NCBI GenBank assembly: GCA_963662465.1
Contig: OY759599.1
Span: forward strand, 576,001-640,000
Direction of reading: 5' to 3'
Source: Desulfatiglandales bacterium
GTDB lineage: Bacteria > Desulfobacterota > DSM-4660 > Desulfatiglandales > Desulfatiglandaceae
Length of the DNA stretch: 64,000 nt
Numbering within the stretch: the stretch's first letter is position 1; the number at the start of each line of letters is the position of its first letter. Positions 9,525-47,057 of the stretch are shown in pieces. The position numbers and the translations under genes were made by a program. The notes beneath the pieces are model-generated. The model was given only the letters and a program-made list of their open reading frames with translations, was not told the origin of the DNA and made no database searches.

Positions 9525-11111
9525 ATGACGTGTGCAACGCCGAAAAAGTTCTTTGAGGACAGTGGGGTGGTGGACCCTGTCCATTCCTATCATGTGACGC
9601 TTGAAAATGTAACCAACACCAAGGGGCAGGATCTCAAGATCATGGTGGATTGGGGTCGCTACTTTTCCATATTTGCGCCTCGTCAGAGCGGCAAGACCAC
9701 TTTTTTCAGAGATTTTTGTTTCAGGCTGGCGGAAGATCCAACCTATGTCCCCATTCTCCTGAGTTTCCAGGATTACAAAAGTCTTTCAGCCAAACGGTTT
9801 TACAGCCAGATTCAGGAAGCCCTGCATGAACAGCTTATCAACCGCTTGACCCTTATCGCCTGTCCTCAAATGGACGCGGTAAAGTCCTGCCTGGCGTCAT
9901 GTCCCCTGTCTGACCATGTTTCTTTTCGAGGGTTGTTTGAGGCGTTGAACCGTCAGGTGAAGCAGAAGAAGATTGTTATTTTCATTGATGAATTTGACGG
10001 CATCCCCCGATCCGAGCTGGAAAATTTTCTGACCACCCTGCGTGAGCTGTACCAAAAATATAAAATGCGCAAGGACAAGGCACTCTACGCCGTGGGTCTG
10101 GTGGGCATTCGAAATATCACCAAGCTGATCGTGGGGGGCGTATCGCCCTTCAACATTGCAGACCAGGTAAGGCTTCCGCCCTTCAGTCTCAAAAATGTCC
10201 GGGACCTTTATGGGCAATACACGGATGAAACCCATCAGCCCTTTACGGAAGGAGCGGTTTTAAAGATTTATGAAGAGACTGCAGGTCAACCCTGGCTGGT
10301 CAACCGGCTGGGAACCCTTTTGACCATCGACATCAAGCCGGAAACCGTTGATCCCATCACAGAAGAAGATGTGGGAGCGGCCATAAAACGCTTGTTGAAA
10401 GAAAGGAATAGTCATTTTGACAATCTGCTTGAAAAGGCCAAGCAGCACAAAGAGACCTTTGTTGAGATCGTGTTCGATGGTGTGGATTACAATCCGGACA
10501 ACGAAGATCAATCCTGGTTGGAGCAATATGGCCTGATCAGGGATGAGAATGAGAAAGCACAGGTTTCAAACCCCATATACCAGCAACGGTTTCTAAATGC
10601 CTTTTTCCAGGAATCTCATGCTGTAGCGGACGTTGTAGACAAGGGCTATCATACGCCTGACGGTTTCCTGAACATGGCGGTTATCCTTTCCGATTTTGAA
10701 GAATACATCGTTCAGATCGGCGTCAATGCCTTTTACGCGGGGGGGAAGCCCTATGAAAAAACAGGTCAGTTTTTGCTGACGGCCTGGTTGTATCAGTTCG
10801 TGGAAGGCGGGAAGGGGGACCTGCGTTACGAGGTGCCTTCCGGGTTGGGTCGAATGGACATTTTGCTTACTTACGGGGGACGGAAAACCATTATCGAAAC
10901 AAAGATAAACCGAACCCTGATCCACAAGACCATCGACAAAGCCGTCGATCAGGTCTGCGACAAGTACCTTTTGACGGAAAGGGCGAACGAGGGATATGTG
11001 ATTGTCTTTGACGTCAAGAAAAAGGTTGGGGAGATCGAAGGCCCTCACAGTCGGGAAAAAGACGGCCATAGGGTGCTGGTTTTTGATATGGGAATCGGGA
11101 AGGGGAAATGA
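9525..11111 (+). CDS. AAA-like P-loop ATPase fused to a C-terminal PD-(D/E)XK nuclease-like domain (copy 1)
   Basis: Walker A APRQSGKTT, Walker B IFIDEFD, SPFNI, TAGQPWLVN, C-terminal YE...GRMDILL...IIETK. Confidence 0.85.
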   Translation: MTCATPKKFFEDSGVVDPVHSYHVTLENVTNTKGQDLKIMVDWGRYFSIFAPRQSGKTTFFRDFCFRLAEDPTYVPILLSFQDYKSLSAKRFYSQIQEALHEQLINRLTLIACPQMDAVKSCLASCPLSDHVSFRGLFEALNRQVKQKKIVIFIDEFDGIPRSELENFLTTLRELYQKYKMRKDKALYAVGLVGIRNITKLIVGGVSPFNIADQVRLPPFSLKNVRDLYGQYTDETHQPFTEGAVLKIYEETAGQPWLVNRLGTLLTIDIKPETVDPITEEDVGAAIKRLLKERNSHFDNLLEKAKQHKETFVEIVFDGVDYNPDNEDQSWLEQYGLIRDENEKAQVSNPIYQQRFLNAFFQESHAVADVVDKGYHTPDGFLNMAVILSDFEEYIVQIGVNAFYAGGKPYEKTGQFLLTAWLYQFVEGGKGDLRYEVPSGLGRMDILLTYGGRKTIIETKINRTLIHKTIDKAVDQVCDKYLLTERANEGYVIVFDVKKKVGEIEGPHSREKDGHRVLVFDMGIGKGK

Positions 11112-12709
11112 GAGGAAATAAGACCATGACGTACATGAAGCCGAAAAAGTTTTTTGAGGACAGTGGTCTGGTGGACCCTGCTCATTCCTACCATGTGAAT
11201 CTGGAGAATGTGATTAACACCAGGGGGCAGGACATGCGGACCATGGTGGATCTGGGTCGCTATTTTTCCATATTTGCGCCCCGACAGAGCGGCAAGACCA
11301 CTTTTTTCAGAGATTTTTGTTTCAGGCTGGCGGAAGATCCAACCTATGTCCCCATTCTCCTGAGTTTTCAGTACATGAAGAATCTCGATGCAACAGCCTT
11401 TTACGAACGTGTTCAGAAGGATCTGTTTCAACAGTTGACAAAACGGCTTGAATCCGTGAACTGCGCCGGGAAAGACGCTGTCAAAGACTTCCTGACCTCC
11501 ACGTCCGTTTCAACCCATGCCGGCATATATGATCTATTCGAAACGCTGAACCAACTGATTCAGTCAAAAAAGATCGTCATTTTCATCGACGAATTCGACG
11601 GCATTCCCCGATCCGAATTGGAAAATTTTCTGACCACCCTGCGTGAACTGTATCAGAAATACAAAGGACAAACGGACAAGGCCTTGTACTCGGTGGGGCT
11701 TGTGGGCATTCGAAATATCACCAAACTGATCGTGGGGGGCGTATCGCCCTTCAACATCGCCGACCAAGTGAAGCTTCCGCCCTTCAGTCTTAAAAATGTT
11801 TGGGACCTTTATGGGCAATACACGGATGAAACCCATCAGCTTTTTACGGAAGGAGCGGTTCTAAAGGTTTATGAAGAGACTGCGGGCCAACCTTGGCTGG
11901 TCAACCGGCTGGGGACCCTTTTGACCATCGATATCAAGCCGGAAACCACGGATCCGGTCAATGAGAAAGACGTGGAAAAGGCGGTGGAGCTACTCCTTTA
12001 CGAAGAAAATAATCATTTTGACAATATCACCGAGAAGGCCCGACAGTTCAAGGAAACCTTTGTGGATGTGGTCTTTGACGGGGTGAACTATGTTCCCGGC
12101 GATGAGGCGCAATCACTTCTTTTGACCCATGGACTGATTAAAGCCGAGGGGAAAAAGCTGACCGTGGCCAATCCCATCTATAGAAAACGATTTGCAAAGA
12201 CCTTTTTCCGGGAATCCCATGCCACAACGGACGTTGTAGACAAGGGGTATTACACGCCTGACGGTTTTCTAAACATGGCGGCCATTCTTTCCGATTTTGA
12301 AGAATACATCGTTCAGATCGGCGTCAATGCTTTTTATGCGGGGGGGAAGCCCTATGAAAAAACAGGTCAGTTTTTGCTGACGGCCTGGTTGTATCAGTTC
12401 GTGGAAGGCGGGAAGGGGGACCTTCGTTACGAGGTGCCCTCCGGGTTGGGCCGAATGGACATTTTGCTCACTTACGGGGGACAAAAAACCATTATCGAAA
12501 CAAAGATAAACCGAACCCTGATCCACAAGACCATCGACAAAGCTGTAGATCAGGTCTGCGACAAGTACCTTTTGACGGAAAGGGCGAACGAGGGGTATGT
12601 GATTCTCTTTGACGTCAAGAAAAAGGTCGGGGAGATCGAAGGCCCCCATACTCGGGAAAAAGACGGCCATAGGGTGCTGGTTTTTGATATGGGAATCGGG
12701 AGGGGGTAA
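11108..12709 (+). CDS. AAA-like ATPase + PD-(D/E)XK nuclease-like domain (copy 2, tandem paralog)
   Basis: Same motifs as copy 1, long near-identical DNA blocks, ATGA overlap with copy 1. Confidence 0.85.
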   Translation: MRGNKTMTYMKPKKFFEDSGLVDPAHSYHVNLENVINTRGQDMRTMVDLGRYFSIFAPRQSGKTTFFRDFCFRLAEDPTYVPILLSFQYMKNLDATAFYERVQKDLFQQLTKRLESVNCAGKDAVKDFLTSTSVSTHAGIYDLFETLNQLIQSKKIVIFIDEFDGIPRSELENFLTTLRELYQKYKGQTDKALYSVGLVGIRNITKLIVGGVSPFNIADQVKLPPFSLKNVWDLYGQYTDETHQLFTEGAVLKVYEETAGQPWLVNRLGTLLTIDIKPETTDPVNEKDVEKAVELLLYEENNHFDNITEKARQFKETFVDVVFDGVNYVPGDEAQSLLLTHGLIKAEGKKLTVANPIYRKRFAKTFFRESHATTDVVDKGYYTPDGFLNMAAILSDFEEYIVQIGVNAFYAGGKPYEKTGQFLLTAWLYQFVEGGKGDLRYEVPSGLGRMDILLTYGGQKTIIETKINRTLIHKTIDKAVDQVCDKYLLTERANEGYVILFDVKKKVGEIEGPHTREKDGHRVLVFDMGIGRG

Positions 12710-12712
12710 GCT

Positions 12713-12759
12713 GCTACCGAGGTAAGGCGGGACAGTTTCTCATTTGCGTGAACCTTGAT
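12713..12759 (+). repeat. 47-bp direct repeat, copy A
   Basis: GCTACCGAGGTAAGGCGGGACAGTTTCTCATTTGCGTGAACCTTGAT; 43/47 identical to 14540-14586. Confidence 0.9.
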
Positions 12760-12909
12760 CATCGTTCCGGCCATTTGCAGGGGTGAAAGACCCTTTTTTA
12801 AACTGTGCACCCCGATGAACCTTGTCATCATCAAGTAATCCTACCATCCTTTTTAATCGTGGTTCAAGACGATGTTGCCAACGCCGAATTGCAAGGGAAC
12901 GAGCCCTTC

Positions 12910-13201
12910 CTAAATTGTCCCGGCTTGTGGCTGTAGCCCAGGAACGGCTACGGCCACAAGCCGGGACAAAATGTTTGAACACGATTTAAAAGATTACCAT
13001 TGGCCGATAAAATGCAGACGAAATGGTGTAAAGGGGGGGAAGGAATTTGTCCGGACGCCGTCTTTTAATCCTGTCCATCTAAGAAATCCTGTTCATTGTG
13101 TTCAAGACAATGAGGATGCCCACAGTGACGGATAACCCTTTGCCTGTTCTTGAAAACTATAAAAATCACATCATCTACGATCACAAGCCGGGACAATTTA
13201 G
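12910..13201. mobile_element. MITE-like element with 27-bp terminal inverted repeats and an internal third arm forming a 24-bp hairpin
   Basis: CTAAATTGTCCCGGCTTGTGGCTGTAG (12910-12936) against CTACGATCACAAGCCGGGACAATTTAG (13175-13201); hairpin 12915-12969. Confidence 0.7.
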
Positions 13202-13209
13202 AAAATCAC

Positions 13210-13232
13210 GTTCCCACGCTCCGCGTGGGAAC
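13210..13232. repeat. REP-like palindrome GTTCCCACGCTCCGCGTGGGAAC
   Basis: Perfect stem read directly; resembles RAYT-associated REP elements. Confidence 0.75.
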
Positions 13233-13411
13233 CAGCGGGAGAAGCCGTGCAATCAATTCACAAATATTTGGAGTAGTTTATGTGCCAAAAATATTTGATA
13301 TTTTAAGAGAAAATATGATACCGTTTAGGTTCTAACTAGCTCACAATTAAAAAATGAATAGTTTTCATTTTGAGTTGTTCGTAAAAACAATTACCAAAAA
13401 TGAGGTTTATC

Positions 13412-13687
13412 ATGGAAGCAATTATTAGAGAATCTGGGGGAGGGGTAAGCATTATAATCCCCGAAGATTTTAAAAAAGAATATCCTTTTAAAGAACATAT
13501 GATTTTTGAAATATTCGCTGAAAAAGAAAGAATAATTCTTAAACCGCAAGAAAAAACAAAGCGTCAAAAACTCACAGATGAATTCAATTCTATAAATCTG
13601 GATGACTTTGAAAAGTATAAACAAGAAACGCTTGCTCCTTTTCTAAATATGTCTGCTGAGGGAATGGAGTTGTTTGATGAAGAATGA
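13412..13687 (+). CDS. AbrB/MazE-like antitoxin
   Basis: IRESGGGVSIIIPEDF...ERIILKP swapped-hairpin pattern; overlaps the downstream toxin start. Confidence 0.75.
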   Translation: MEAIIRESGGGVSIIIPEDFKKEYPFKEHMIFEIFAEKERIILKPQEKTKRQKLTDEFNSINLDDFEKYKQETLAPFLNMSAEGMELFDEE

Positions 13688-14021
13688 AGTGTCGCAACTG
13701 GGTTCAGCAGATATCATTTTTGTAAACCTTGATCCGAGAAAAGGTCATGAACAAGGTGGGGAAAGACCTGTTGTTGTGATTACTCCGGATTTTATGAATC
13801 GTTTAGGAATTGTCGGTGTTTTACCTATTACAAAAAGGAGAAAAGGTTTTCCATTTGAAATCCCGATCCCTTCGGAAATGAGAACAAAAGGTGTGATATT
13901 AGGTATACATTTCAGAAGTCTTGATCTAAAAGAACGTAACTGGAGATATCTTGAAACGATTCCTGAAAATAAGTATGAAACAGTGCGCGATTTTTTAAAA
14001 GCAATTCTAATTGATAAATAA
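13674..14021 (+). CDS. mazF: MazF/PemK family endoribonuclease toxin
   Basis: DIIFVNLDPRKGHEQGGERPVVVIT...LPIT...GFPFEI...RSLD. Confidence 0.9.
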   Translation: MMKNEVSQLGSADIIFVNLDPRKGHEQGGERPVVVITPDFMNRLGIVGVLPITKRRKGFPFEIPIPSEMRTKGVILGIHFRSLDLKERNWRYLETIPENKYETVRDFLKAILIDK

Positions 14022-14164
14022 TCAGACTTTTCCAGGCTAGTTTGAGAGCCACTAAAAGGCAATTCACAGCCGCTAAAATAAAATACTGTATCAGAACCCA
14101 TCCCAATTAAAATCGAAAAAGCCATTGTTTTAATTGGAAATATAAGAAATGAAATTTTAAATTT

Positions 14165-14345
14165 GGCTCATGTTGGATTCCGGGGTCGTAAACATGCTAA
14201 ATCGGAATAAAGTATTGATTTAATACGGATTTTGCTTAGGACACGGAAATGTGCGACCGAGCAATAAATGTTTAATATTTTTAGCATGTTACAATATGTC
14301 TTGGGCCTTTTTTGGAACAAAAGACCCTGGAACCCAACATGAGCC
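14165..14345. mobile_element. 181-bp MITE-like element with 23-bp terminal inverted repeats
   Basis: GGCTCATGTTGGATTCCGGGGTC (14165-14187) against GACCCTGGAACCCAACATGAGCC (14323-14345), 2 mismatches; internal IR AACATGCTAAA/TTTAGCATGTT. Confidence 0.75.
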
Positions 14346-14442
14346 ATAATGAAATTATAAAATTTGTAATCGTTCACAGGAGTACAGAGGACATCGGAAA
14401 AAATTGGGGTGCAGTCCAAATGTAACTTTCCTATTTCATCGA

Positions 14443-14527
14443 GTCAGGAACATTGCCCCGCTTCGAGGGGATTGAGACCTTGTTTCGGAGGCGTAAACCC
14501 AAAGGACCTTATTGCGTCAGGAACATT
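14443..14527 (+). CRISPR. Orphan mini CRISPR unit: one 36-nt repeat, a 37-nt spacer and a 12-nt truncated second repeat
   Basis: Repeat GTCAGGAACATTGCCCCGCTTCGAGGGGATTGAGAC (14443-14478) with a CCCC/GGGG hairpin followed by the 8-nt ATTGAGAC; spacer 14479-14515; GTCAGGAACATT again at 14516-14527. Confidence 0.82.
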
Positions 14528-14539
14528 ATTTTCTTGTTG

Positions 14540-14586
14540 GCTACCGACGTAAGGCGGGACAGTTTCTCATTTGTCTGAATCTTGAT
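14540..14586 (+). repeat. 47-bp direct repeat, copy B
   Basis: GCTACCGACGTAAGGCGGGACAGTTTCTCATTTGTCTGAATCTTGAT. Confidence 0.9.
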
Positions 14587-14715
14587 TGCCTTGATCCCTT
14601 GATTTTTTCTGATTAAACTGATGACCTGGCGCCACGAAGGCTCTCTCCCCCATTTTTTTGTAGGAAGCATCATAACGCTTGACCCATATATCGTATAAAT
14701 GTTATATTTTGTGCC

Positions 14716-15084
14716 ATGGAATGGGAATTACTGATCAGTCAAGAATATGAAGAGTGGTTTAACAATTTGCCTCAAAAGCACAAAATGGCAATAGCAACTG
14801 ATTTGAACGTGCTGAAAGATATCGGCCCAACGCTTGGGCGCCCGTACGTGGATCAAATAAAAGGTTCAAAATTCAACAATTTGAAAGAACTGAGGACCAA
14901 AGCCTCCGGGCATATTTATCGCAGCCTTTTTGCCTTTGACCCCCAACGGTGTGCCGTAATTTTATGTGGTGGAGATAAAAGAGGGAAAGATCAGGAAAAA
15001 TTTTACAAAAACCTAGTTTCCCAGGCAGAAACTGTTTTTGAAAAGCACCTCAAGAACATTCAAAAGAAAGAAGAGGTGAGATGA
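14716..15084 (+). CDS. RelE/ParE superfamily toxin (HigB/Gp49-like)
   Basis: GPTLGRPYVDQIKGSKFNNLKELR...RSLFAFDPQRCAVILCGGDKRG; TTGACC-N17-TATATT promoter-like motif upstream. Confidence 0.9.
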   Translation: MEWELLISQEYEEWFNNLPQKHKMAIATDLNVLKDIGPTLGRPYVDQIKGSKFNNLKELRTKASGHIYRSLFAFDPQRCAVILCGGDKRGKDQEKFYKNLVSQAETVFEKHLKNIQKKEEVR

Positions 15085-15380
15085 TGAAAACCTTGGAAAA
15101 ATTAATTGAAGAGAATTTTTCTTCCGAAGAAAAGGCTGAAATTCGGAGAAAATCAAAAGAGAAAGTAGCCATAATTCGCTTGCAACAGATTCGAAAATCA
15201 CACCATAAAACCCAAAAAGAACTTGCTCAGGCCATGGGTTTATCCCAATCTGCCTTATCGGAGTTCGAAAGAAGGCCAAATATTACTGTTACTGCAATGC
15301 AACGTTATATCGAAGCATTGGGGGGGGAACTGGTTATAAAGGCGGTGTTTCAGGGAGAAAGTGAGGAACTTCTCGCCTAA
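15081..15380 (+). CDS. XRE-family HTH antitoxin (HigA-like)
   Basis: LQQIRKSHHKTQKELAQAMGLSQSALSEFER...YIEALGGEL; overlaps the toxin stop. Confidence 0.9.
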   Translation: MMKTLEKLIEENFSSEEKAEIRRKSKEKVAIIRLQQIRKSHHKTQKELAQAMGLSQSALSEFERRPNITVTAMQRYIEALGGELVIKAVFQGESEELLA

Positions 15381-15519
15381 AAGGGATACGATCATGATTG
15401 ATGCTTCCGGACAGTGAGAAGTGCCTGGTTATGACGGTGATCGATCCGGGTTACATGGGTGGTGGAATCTACTTTGGATCGCAGAGGGGTACGTATAAGT
15501 ACGTTCTGAAACGTCTGAC

Positions 15520-30691: not shown

Positions 30692-30779
30692 TGGTGCCGG
30701 AGGTCGGAATCGAACCGACACGAACGCAAGGTTCACTGGATTTTGAGTCCAGCGCGTCTACCAGTTTCACCACTCCGGC
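30692..30779 (-). tRNA. tRNA-Leu(CAA)
   Basis: Reverse complement GCCGGAGTGGTGAAACTGGTAGACGCGCTGGACTCAAAATCCAG...GTTCGATTCCGACCTCCGGCACCA with long variable arm. Confidence 0.97.
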
Positions 30780-30927
30780 ACAAGATCAAGAGGGGCAAAG
30801 GAGGATTAAAAAAAGCACTCTCAGATGCCCGAAACTCATAACTCAGGATTATACAAAAATTATGAAAAGAATGTCAATATCATATTGACACGAGCAAATA
30901 CTTTCTGGTATTAAAGATCACGTTTGC

Positions 30928-31003
30928 GGGGCTGTAGCTCAGATGGGAGAGCGCATGACTGGCAGTCATGAGGTCAGGGGTTCGATCCCCCTCAGCTCCA
31001 CCA
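30928..31003 (+). tRNA. tRNA-Ala(GGC)
   Basis: GGGGCTGTAGCTCAGATGGGAGAGCGCATGACTGGCAGTCATGAGGTCAGGGGTTCGATCCCCCTCAGCTCCACCA. Confidence 0.97.
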
Positions 31004-46680: not shown

Positions 46681-47057
46681 TCTCCGTAGGCCCGTTGCTT
46701 GTAATCGACGCTTAAAGACATTCAATTAATTTCACCATATCATCCGACCCTGGCCCTTAACCGGGGAGGATTCCCGGAGGGGTTCTCCTGTCAACATTTG
46801 AACCCACTTCGGTACATTGTCCGCAGGGCTTCGCACCCCATCATCAGCGCAATGGTAACACGCCTGCGTAGGGTCCGGCAGGAACATGCCGGGTACTACA
46901 TGTAACTACATGAATACACTAAAACTATGCGACTTCGTGTCGCAAGCCAACCAGTGATTGTGCGGTTTTTTTTGTTATCAAGTATCCAAATCTACATGTT
47001 AGCTGATTTCCCGTCTTTAACTTCGCTAACAAATAAGTTAAGGAAAACGTGTTACCT

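What the first reader, a model, noticed from the sequence alone, without database searches (positions are those of the whole stretch)
14346..14539. Orphan one-spacer CRISPR unit with exact Cas6 geometry, lying between two toxin-antitoxin loci
Seen: a 36-nt repeat whose CCCC-GCTTCGA-GGGG hairpin is followed by exactly 8 nt (ATTGAGAC), then a 37-nt spacer and the first 12 nt of a second repeat. AT-rich sequence lies upstream, there are no cas genes in the 64 kb, and MazEF-like and HigBA-like pairs flank it. Known: class 1 (type I/III) Cas6 cuts at the hairpin base and leaves an 8-nt handle; solitary or mini repeat units can act as regulatory crRNA-like RNAs (CreA) or RNA anti-CRISPRs (Racr). Inference: this is either the leader-end stub of a deleted array or a functional mini-array processed in trans. 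I found no match to the spacer in the window by eye.
Basis: partly seen in the sequence, partly recalled or inferred. Interest (0 to 1): 0.75.

Follow-up and report, generated by a model that had tools for sequence, protein, structure and literature searches.

The report
Stranded one-spacer type III CRISPR stub
This is a real but stranded scrap of a CRISPR array (a worn leader, one intact repeat, one spacer and a broken second repeat) far from the matching CRISPR genes of the same chromosome, and it is most likely a leftover and not a regulatory RNA.

Summary
In detail: repeat 14443-14478, 37-nt spacer, 12-nt repeat stub; the best-matching run supports the junctions at single-copy depth. The repeat matches 34 of 36 bases of a 51-repeat array beside a complete type III-A locus 677 kb away, so processing in trans is possible. 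A second lone copy with the same two-base variant lies upstream of another Gp49-HTH toxin-antitoxin pair. Against function: no spacer target in the genome, phage, plasmid or viral collections; the unit was in none of 40 relatives; the downstream toxin-antitoxin cassette occurs at 98% identity without it; one other sample carries the same upstream DNA without the repeat. The upstream 97 bases resemble the family's leader only weakly (46-53%, p 0.001-0.03; 100, 101), and related genomes hold similar one-spacer stubs. Best reading: collapsed, displaced type III-A mini-array in a repeat- and toxin-antitoxin-rich island (0.6). This scan has reported similar type III stubs on other DNA. Open oddities: intact repeat beside a worn leader, both lone copies ahead of Gp49 genes, and a repeat piece patched into a gene deletion in a relative.

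The parts
14346..14442 (+). Truncated, strongly diverged leader-like stretch (weak evidence)
   Evidence: 46-53% identity to six real leaders of this repeat family, which are 76-98% alike among the five close ones and 54-57% to a more distant one; anchored alignment p 0.004 (mean of 5) and 0.0007 (best of 5) against 3000 dinucleotide shuffles, p 0.006-0.035 against 1500 GC-matched genome pieces; a leader HMM and blastn do not find it
14443..14478 (+). Intact type III-A CRISPR repeat; C/G hairpin 14456-14470, 8-nt handle 14471-14478
   Evidence: 34/36 to the resident 51-repeat array, 35/36 to the G010 array, 36/36 to the first repeat of the G001 array and to metagenome copies; fold
14479..14515 (+). 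37-nt spacer, target unknown
   Evidence: length within the 36-42 nt of array spacers; no target found; shared with none of the G000 or G010 array spacers
14516..14527 (+). First 12 nt of a second repeat; hairpin and handle lost
14528..14536 (+). Possible remnant of the array trailer
   Evidence: 8 of 9 match to the sequence that follows the terminal repeat of the G000 and G010 arrays; 0.4-0.55% of control 9-mers do as well; post hoc
14537..14608 (+). Dispersed non-coding element, left edge of the mobile higBA-like cassette
   Evidence: at least 11 other copies in G000; the 98% match to G010 starts exactly here
14716..15380 (+). Gp49 (RelE/HigB-like) toxin and HTH antitoxin pair; promoter-like site 14679-14708
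   Evidence: Pfam PF05973, PF01381; promoter scan; same cassette in G010 in another context without the repeat
14165..14345 (.). MITE-like element with terminal inverted repeats; cuts off the leader-like stretch on its left
   Evidence: inverted arms 14156-14187/14323-14354; 86% copy with the same ends at an unrelated place in G010
14022..14164 (.). Second dispersed element
   Evidence: 92% copy at G000:C1:5439814, 81% in G005; absent from a related mazEF contig in run X6
13400..14021 (+). Putative antitoxin plus MazF/PemK toxin
   Evidence: PF02452 for 13674-14021; upstream ORF has no family hit

Best explanation
A collapsed, one-spacer CRISPR mini-array of the type III-A repeat family, stranded in an accessory island 677 kb from the cognate cas genes. 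Shown: repeat identity, cognate III-A locus, assembly support, mosaic flanks, lack of conservation and of a target. Inferred: a second array of this family (with the repeat variant seen today in G001 and metagenome relatives, not in the resident array) shrank by deletions to leader-repeat-spacer-broken terminal repeat; MITE-like insertions then cut the leader to 97 nt and a mobile toxin-antitoxin cassette replaced what followed. If read-through from mazEF or a leader promoter reaches it, the resident Cas6 could cut it and Csm could load an old guide, but nothing indicates that this is selected for or that it controls the neighbouring toxins.
For: Cognate III-A locus with cas1, cas2, CAPP, cas6, cas10, csm2-5. 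Repeat variant differs from the resident array at 2 nt but equals G001 and metagenome copies, and the leader-like stretch scores best with the G001 and L048 leaders that carry this variant (41 and 44 against 16-23). Leader-repeat-spacer-broken-repeat stubs recur in this family: L047/L050 (second repeat ends at nt 19), G194, leader plus 32-nt repeat in L048. Unit found in 0 of 40 relatives; no lone copy of the repeat in G010, G066 or G178. Downstream cassette present without it in G010, which has the same III-A-type array and CAPP; 0 of 9 related higB loci carry a repeat. A contig of run X3 is identical over 14273-14444 and then continues with other sequence. Spacer's best genomic match 21 of 30, equal to 21-22 for 14 ordinary array spacers. 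Shmakov et al. (bioRxiv 10.1101/2023.03.03.530964, section 22 read) judge type III mini-arrays to be degraded, non-functional repeats.
Against: The 36-nt repeat and 12-nt stub are unchanged while the leader is only about half identical, which plain neutral decay does not predict (it needs a leader from a diverged lineage, or selection on the repeat). The leader likeness is weak and not seen by HMM. Both lone repeats of the genome lie in sense orientation 127-237 nt upstream of Gp49 genes (2 of 11 Gp49 hits). No close strain of the same species was available as an assembly, so absence in other species says little about conservation within the species. No RNA evidence either way.
Confidence: 0.6

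Rival explanations
1. Ectopic patch: a piece of array beginning at nt 1 of a repeat was joined to unrelated host DNA at a break, either by Cas1-Cas2 attacking the leader-repeat junction with a chromosome end followed by CAPP strand displacement, or by microhomology joining; the unit is a scar of the acquisition machinery, also without function.
For: In metagenome locus L050 repeat nt 1-30 replace 286 bp inside a TPR gene, and homology to the intact gene runs up to the base before nt 1. L048 has leader-repeat(1-32)-1.5-kb gene-full repeat. Both lone copies in G000 start at nt 1 in an unbiased 13-mer scan. The X3 contig leaves the window sequence at nt 2 of the repeat. The resident locus encodes CAPP type A1; CAPPs dismantle half-site intermediates by strand displacement in vitro (PMC8211822, passages read).
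Against: The upstream DNA here is leader-like, unlike the L050, L048 and second-site flanks (p 0.3-0.8). The lone copies carry a variant absent from the resident array. The metagenome pattern required an intact 5' end, so those cases are biased; L046 shows a 5'-truncated copy. No lone copies in three other CAPP genomes tested with their own repeat (G010, G066, G178). At the second site 24 nt of unknown origin precede the repeat and could be a spacer remnant.
Confidence: 0.17
2. Selected regulatory unit: the repeat is kept as a Cas6 site or guide source that couples the neighbouring toxin-antitoxin operons to the presence of the III-A system (a type III analogue of CreTA/crlRNA).
For: Intact hairpin and handle beside a worn leader; both lone repeats are co-oriented with and just upstream of Gp49-HTH pairs; no terminator-like site between mazF and the repeat.
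Against: No partial target above shuffles in the III-A locus, the second cas locus or 6 kb around either lone repeat (8 comparisons, each scored two ways; lowest fractions 0.06 and 0.04). The higBA-like operon has its own promoter-like site downstream of the unit and moves without it. The second lone copy has a changed first handle base and no second repeat. 9 of 11 Gp49 hits in the genome have no repeat.
Confidence: 0.1
3. Working distant mini-array or decoy: the unit is transcribed and processed in trans, giving one extra antiviral guide against an unsampled element, or titrating Cas6/Csm like an RNA anti-CRISPR brought in with the island.
For: Repeat compatible with the resident system (differences lie 5' of the hairpin). 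Distant arrays usually match the resident subtype (PMC7145637, passages). A viral contig carries a lone repeat of this family (L131), so mobile elements do carry it.
Against: No protospacer found. None of 10 island proteins scanned is a phage structural or replication protein. Second repeat lacks the hairpin, so the 3' end would depend on trimming alone. In 98-nt context the lowest-energy fold pairs the G-run with the spacer, though the centroid keeps the hairpin.
Confidence: 0.1
4. Assembly artefact: a longer array collapsed or mis-joined.
For: Short arrays at contig ends are common in the relatives.
Against: Overlapping contigs of run X1 cross both junctions with 0 differences at single-copy depth; the repeat variant and spacer differ from the main array.
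Confidence: 0.02

Closest known systems
Degraded mini-arrays and standalone repeats of type III CRISPR-Cas systems (Shmakov et al., bioRxiv 10.1101/2023.03.03.530964; abstract and sections 20, 22, 24 read)
   Same: Intact first repeat, spacer-sized gap, degraded second repeat; type III; no conservation of position; no target found
   Different: Theirs lie close to the CRISPR-cas locus; this one is 677 kb away, in a toxin-antitoxin island, and carries a repeat variant not in the resident array
Distant CRISPR arrays (Bernheim et al., PMC7145637; passages read)
   Same: More than 20 kb from a cas cluster of matching subtype; could be processed in trans or be a remnant
   Different: Reduced to one and a third repeats (their distant arrays average 13)
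CreA/CreR and crlRNA regulators of toxins and defence genes (as described in Shmakov et al. sections 22, 24 and Shu et al., bioRxiv 10.1101/2024.12.27.630466, abstract and outline only)
   Same: Repeat-spacer-degenerate-repeat anatomy next to toxin genes
   Different: Those are type I/V-A, DNA-binding, cas-linked, with a partial match to a promoter; none of that is met here
Solitary repeat units and RNA anti-CRISPRs (Camara-Wilpert et al., PMC10651486; passages read)
   Same: Repeat without cas genes nearby that matches the host's subtype
   Different: Chromosomal island without phage genes among those scanned; spacer and second repeat present; no promoter shown

Membership tests
Type III-A CRISPR repeat family of this genome | Repeat matches an array linked to cas10/csm genes | tested here: met
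   34/36 to the array beside cas6, cas10/Csm1, csm2-5
Type III-A CRISPR repeat family of this genome | Hairpin followed by an 8-nt handle | tested here: met
   cleavage by Cas6 itself not tested
Degraded type III mini-array (Shmakov et al.) | Intact proximal repeat, 20-60-nt spacer, degraded distal repeat | tested here: met
Degraded type III mini-array (Shmakov et al.) | No positional conservation, no target | tested here: met
   0 of 40 relatives
Degraded type III mini-array (Shmakov et al.) | Close to the CRISPR-cas locus | tested here: not met
   677 kb away
Distant CRISPR array (Bernheim et al.) | Over 20 kb from a cas cluster whose repeat is at least 74% identical | tested here: met
   94% identity, 677 kb
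Distant CRISPR array (Bernheim et al.) | Own leader | tested here: inconclusive
   weak anchored likeness, no HMM hit
CreA / crlRNA | Spacer partly complementary to a toxin, defence or cas promoter | tested here: not met
   no match above shuffles in four regions or genome-wide
CreA / crlRNA | Within or next to a type I or V-A cas locus | tested here: not met
   cognate system is III-A and distant
CreA / crlRNA | Conserved in related loci | tested here: not met
   no same-species assembly available
CreA / crlRNA | Expressed, processed RNA that represses its target | not testable with these tools
   only contigs were available; the RNA run laid held relatives' pieces
Racr / viral SRU | Encoded on a virus or plasmid | tested here: not met
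   single chromosome contig; PHROG hits only to toxin, HTH and unknown families among 10 island proteins; the rest of the window was not scanned
Racr / viral SRU | Directly downstream of a promoter | tested here: inconclusive
   none predicted at 14023-14678, but the scan also finds none in the real leader
Racr / viral SRU | acr genes nearby; inhibits immunity | not tested
   no acr search run; inhibition needs an experiment

The most novel reading that the evidence does not exclude
Both lone repeats of this genome are kept intact just upstream of Gp49-type toxin-antitoxin operons because the distant type III-A Cas6/Csm machinery cuts or loads these transcripts, tying toxin expression to the presence of the CRISPR system: a type III, RNA-level, in-trans counterpart of CreTA, seeded by repeat pieces that the Cas1-Cas2-CAPP module drops at DNA breaks.
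Probability: 0.08. Interest if true: 0.75.

Novelty: new member of a known kind. Interest (0 to 1): 0.25.

Why it matters
As a remnant it matters little: it adds one more degraded type III mini-array, and shows that lone-repeat screens in toxin-antitoxin-rich genomes will return such stubs. Two side results have some value. The repeat variant records an array that the genome no longer holds. And the L050 case, where nt 1-30 of the repeat fill a deletion inside a gene, hints that the acquisition module can leave repeat pieces at breaks, which would explain how distant arrays and lone repeats arise and is testable by a genome survey. If the regulatory reading were true it would extend CRISPR-coupled toxin control to type III systems; my searches for that listed no such case, but they cover only the held library.

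Tried and rejected
Spacer targets: whole genome up to 13 mismatches, 5 hits all at 13; local partial matches against 100 shuffles in four regions; best-of-30 against 14 of the array's spacers; exact 27- and 19-nt pieces in viral contigs, 0; phages, 3 records at E 0.1-2, none over 80% of the query, taken as chance; plasmids, none. The spacer was not searched in metagenome or genome contigs, whose single scans went to the repeat. Rfam: nothing at the site. Upstream 97 nt in 209 genomes: only short hits at E above 5e-4. Synteny: flanking core genes lie on different contigs in G010, so no empty site could be aligned. The sequence that follows 14444 in the X3 contig was not found in G000. My first reading that the upstream DNA is unrelated to the leader (blastn) was revised after the alignment. 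Generality of lone repeats: of the nine CAPP genomes whose loci were fetched, arrays were found near CAPP in four; G066 and G178 were searched with their own repeat (none outside the array), G026 only with a related repeat (weak test), G053 not searched. Singletons of the 3' 17-mer in 209 genomes were array starts (G001, G156), a leader stub (G194) and a chance match in coding DNA (G158). Of 18 viral loci with the 5' 17-mer, 14 are chance matches, 3 are one array, 1 is a lone repeat. RNA run X10 and other small-share runs give no evidence on expression. Promoter scans are uninformative here. Paper searches gave nothing on repeat pieces at DNA breaks or type III regulatory mini-arrays; supplements of the bioRxiv papers (lists of mini-arrays) could not be seen and might include this locus.

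Full report
Observation. The sequence is as described: a 36-nt repeat at 14443-14478, a 37-nt spacer at 14479-14515 and 12 nt of a second repeat at 14516-14527. The repeat folds into a 4-bp stem with 8 free 3' bases. Contigs of the best-matching run X1 cross both junctions without differences at single-copy depth, so it is not an assembly collapse (X1 may be the source sample).

Cognate system. The window lies at G000:C1:576001-640000. A 51-repeat array at C1:1267239-1270960 differs from the lone repeat at nt 6 and 8 only. Next to it is a type III-A locus: cas1, cas2, CRISPR-associated primase-polymerase type A1, cas6, cas10/Csm1, csm2-5. It is the only place where these proteins, RAMPs or this Cas6 family match. 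A second array at C1:7638423-7639838 has an unrelated repeat; I read it as type I-F from recalled repeat and gene patterns, not from a family scan. The two differences lie 5' of the hairpin, so by established Cas6 behaviour (recalled) the resident enzyme could cut the lone repeat if it is transcribed.

A second lone copy. C1:7688520-7688555 (minus strand) holds the same two-base variant plus a change at the first handle base, with no second repeat. It lies 127 nt upstream of another Gp49-HTH pair, in the same orientation. An unanchored scan for 13-nt exact pieces of the repeat variants found no other credible copy. The variant is that of the first repeats of the G001 array and of three metagenome contigs; G010 has an intermediate form. 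So the lone copies did not come from the resident array in its present form: they predate two changes in it or came from another array (inference).

Flanks. The unit sits in an accessory island between core genes built from dispersed pieces: an element at 14022-14164 with a second copy in the genome, a MITE-like element at 14165-14345 with a copy elsewhere in G010, and an element at 14537-14608 with at least 11 other copies. The stretch 14537-15410 with the higBA-like pair is 98% identical in G010 in another context and without the repeat, although G010 has the same kind of array and CAPP. In run X6 a related mazEF contig joins 14020 to 14357, lacking both inserted elements; whether it goes on into a repeat is not shown. 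In run X3 a contig at depth 157 is identical over 14273-14444 and then continues with other sequence; X3 is a mixed sample (array spacers at depth 19-30, higBA pieces at 6-8), so the allele cannot be assigned to a strain. Toxin-antitoxin genes are dense in this genome: 28 PemK and 11 Gp49 hits, some doubled by an apparent overlap of the contig ends.

Leader and trailer. Blastn does not link the upstream DNA to the leader, nor does a leader HMM. Aligned from the repeat start, however, 14346-14442 shares motifs with it: 46-53% identity, against 76-98% among five close leaders and 54-57% for the real leader of G194; p 0.004 and 0.0007 against dinucleotide shuffles, 0.006-0.035 against GC-matched genome pieces; the best scores are with the G001 and L048 leaders, which carry the same repeat variant. 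Against four distant leaders it is not significant, and four other lone-repeat flanks show no likeness. Real leaders are conserved over about 290 nt, so at most a third remains. The 9 nt after the stub match the array trailer 8 of 9, which 0.4-0.55% of control 9-mers do (post hoc). Together these read as a whole array shrunk to one spacer. The same anatomy with a clear leader occurs in L047/L050 and G194, though those are short-read assemblies.

Target. None. The spacer has no genomic match better than 13 mismatches, its best 30-nt match (21) equals that of 14 ordinary spacers (21-22), partial matches in the two cas loci and around both lone repeats do not exceed shuffles, and viral, phage and plasmid collections gave nothing credible.

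Conservation. The unit is in 0 of 40 relatives; the repeat's 28-nt core occurs in 3 of 105 family genomes, and outside G000 only in arrays. 0 of 9 related higB loci and 0 of 18 viral Gp49 loci carry a repeat-like stretch. No assembly of the same species was available, so within-species conservation is untested apart from the X3 contig.

Mechanism. Most likely (0.6) an inert, collapsed and displaced III-A mini-array; processing in trans is possible but unselected. Shmakov et al. reached the same view for type III mini-arrays (section 22), and Bernheim et al. describe distant arrays of matching subtype as either usable in trans or remnants (passages). The main rival (0.17) is an ectopic patch: in L050 repeat nt 1-30 replace 286 bp of a TPR gene with homology to the intact gene running to the base before nt 1, L048 has a 1.5-kb gene between a leader-repeat stub and a full repeat, and CAPP can displace half-site intermediates in vitro (passages). 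Against it: the leader likeness here, a 5'-truncated case (L046), the 5' bias of my metagenome pattern, and no lone copies in G010, G066 or G178. A selected regulatory role (0.1) rests on the intact repeat beside a worn leader and on both copies lying ahead of Gp49 genes (2 of 11 hits); it lacks a target, conservation and any RNA evidence, and higBA has its own promoter-like site behind the unit. A working extra guide or decoy (0.1) is not excluded; a viral contig does carry a lone repeat of this family.

Verdict. Real feature, known kind, probably without function; interest 0.25. Earlier notes of this scan describe similar type III stubs in other genomes; none covers this place.

Noticed in passing
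G000:C1:7688520-7688555 (L003 8521-8556, minus strand): Second lone repeat of the same variant, between a transposase-like fragment (RAYT-type motif recalled; no Pfam hit) and a Gp49-HTH pair.
   Followed up: yes
L050 (reverse strand 1668-1697): Repeat nt 1-30 fill a 286-bp deletion inside a TPR gene next to a CRISPR stub; junction exactly at nt 1.
   Followed up: partly
L047-L049, one 8.3-kb metagenome contig: Three repeat stubs on one contig: leader-repeat-spacer-broken repeat, leader plus 32-nt repeat, and a leaderless full repeat, separated by whole genes.
   Followed up: partly
L131 975-1017: Lone repeat of this family with a 9-nt internal duplication in a viral contig, pointing against the neighbouring genes.
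   Followed up: partly
L121/L125/L129: A 13-repeat array of a related repeat, with a different leader, on contigs of the viral collection.
   Followed up: no
G000:C1:1289496-1291595: The III-A locus ends with a gene joining a Cas_NE0113 domain to an adenosine deaminase domain; a PemK toxin lies between the TPR gene and cas1 and an MNT-like antitoxin gene follows the array.
   Followed up: no
G000:C1 start and end: Identical hits recur at a fixed offset of about 8.06 Mb (96994/8156660, 98082/8157748, 101467/8161133), which suggests an untrimmed overlap of the contig ends.
   Followed up: no
window 14165-14345: MITE-like element with 23-32-nt inverted ends, also in G010.
   Followed up: partly
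window 12500-13250 and 14537-14608: Families of dispersed non-coding repeats with tens of copies in the genome, stacked after genes.
   Followed up: partly
window 9525-12709: Two tandem, similar AAA-ATPase genes (AAA_35) in the island.
   Followed up: no
G000:C1:7642180-7645159: Three ORFs of the same lengths as the IS21-type trio near the III-A array sit inside the second cas operon; not aligned.
   Followed up: no
window 46753-46893 and 30695-31000: Group II intron domain match and two tRNA genes.
   Followed up: no
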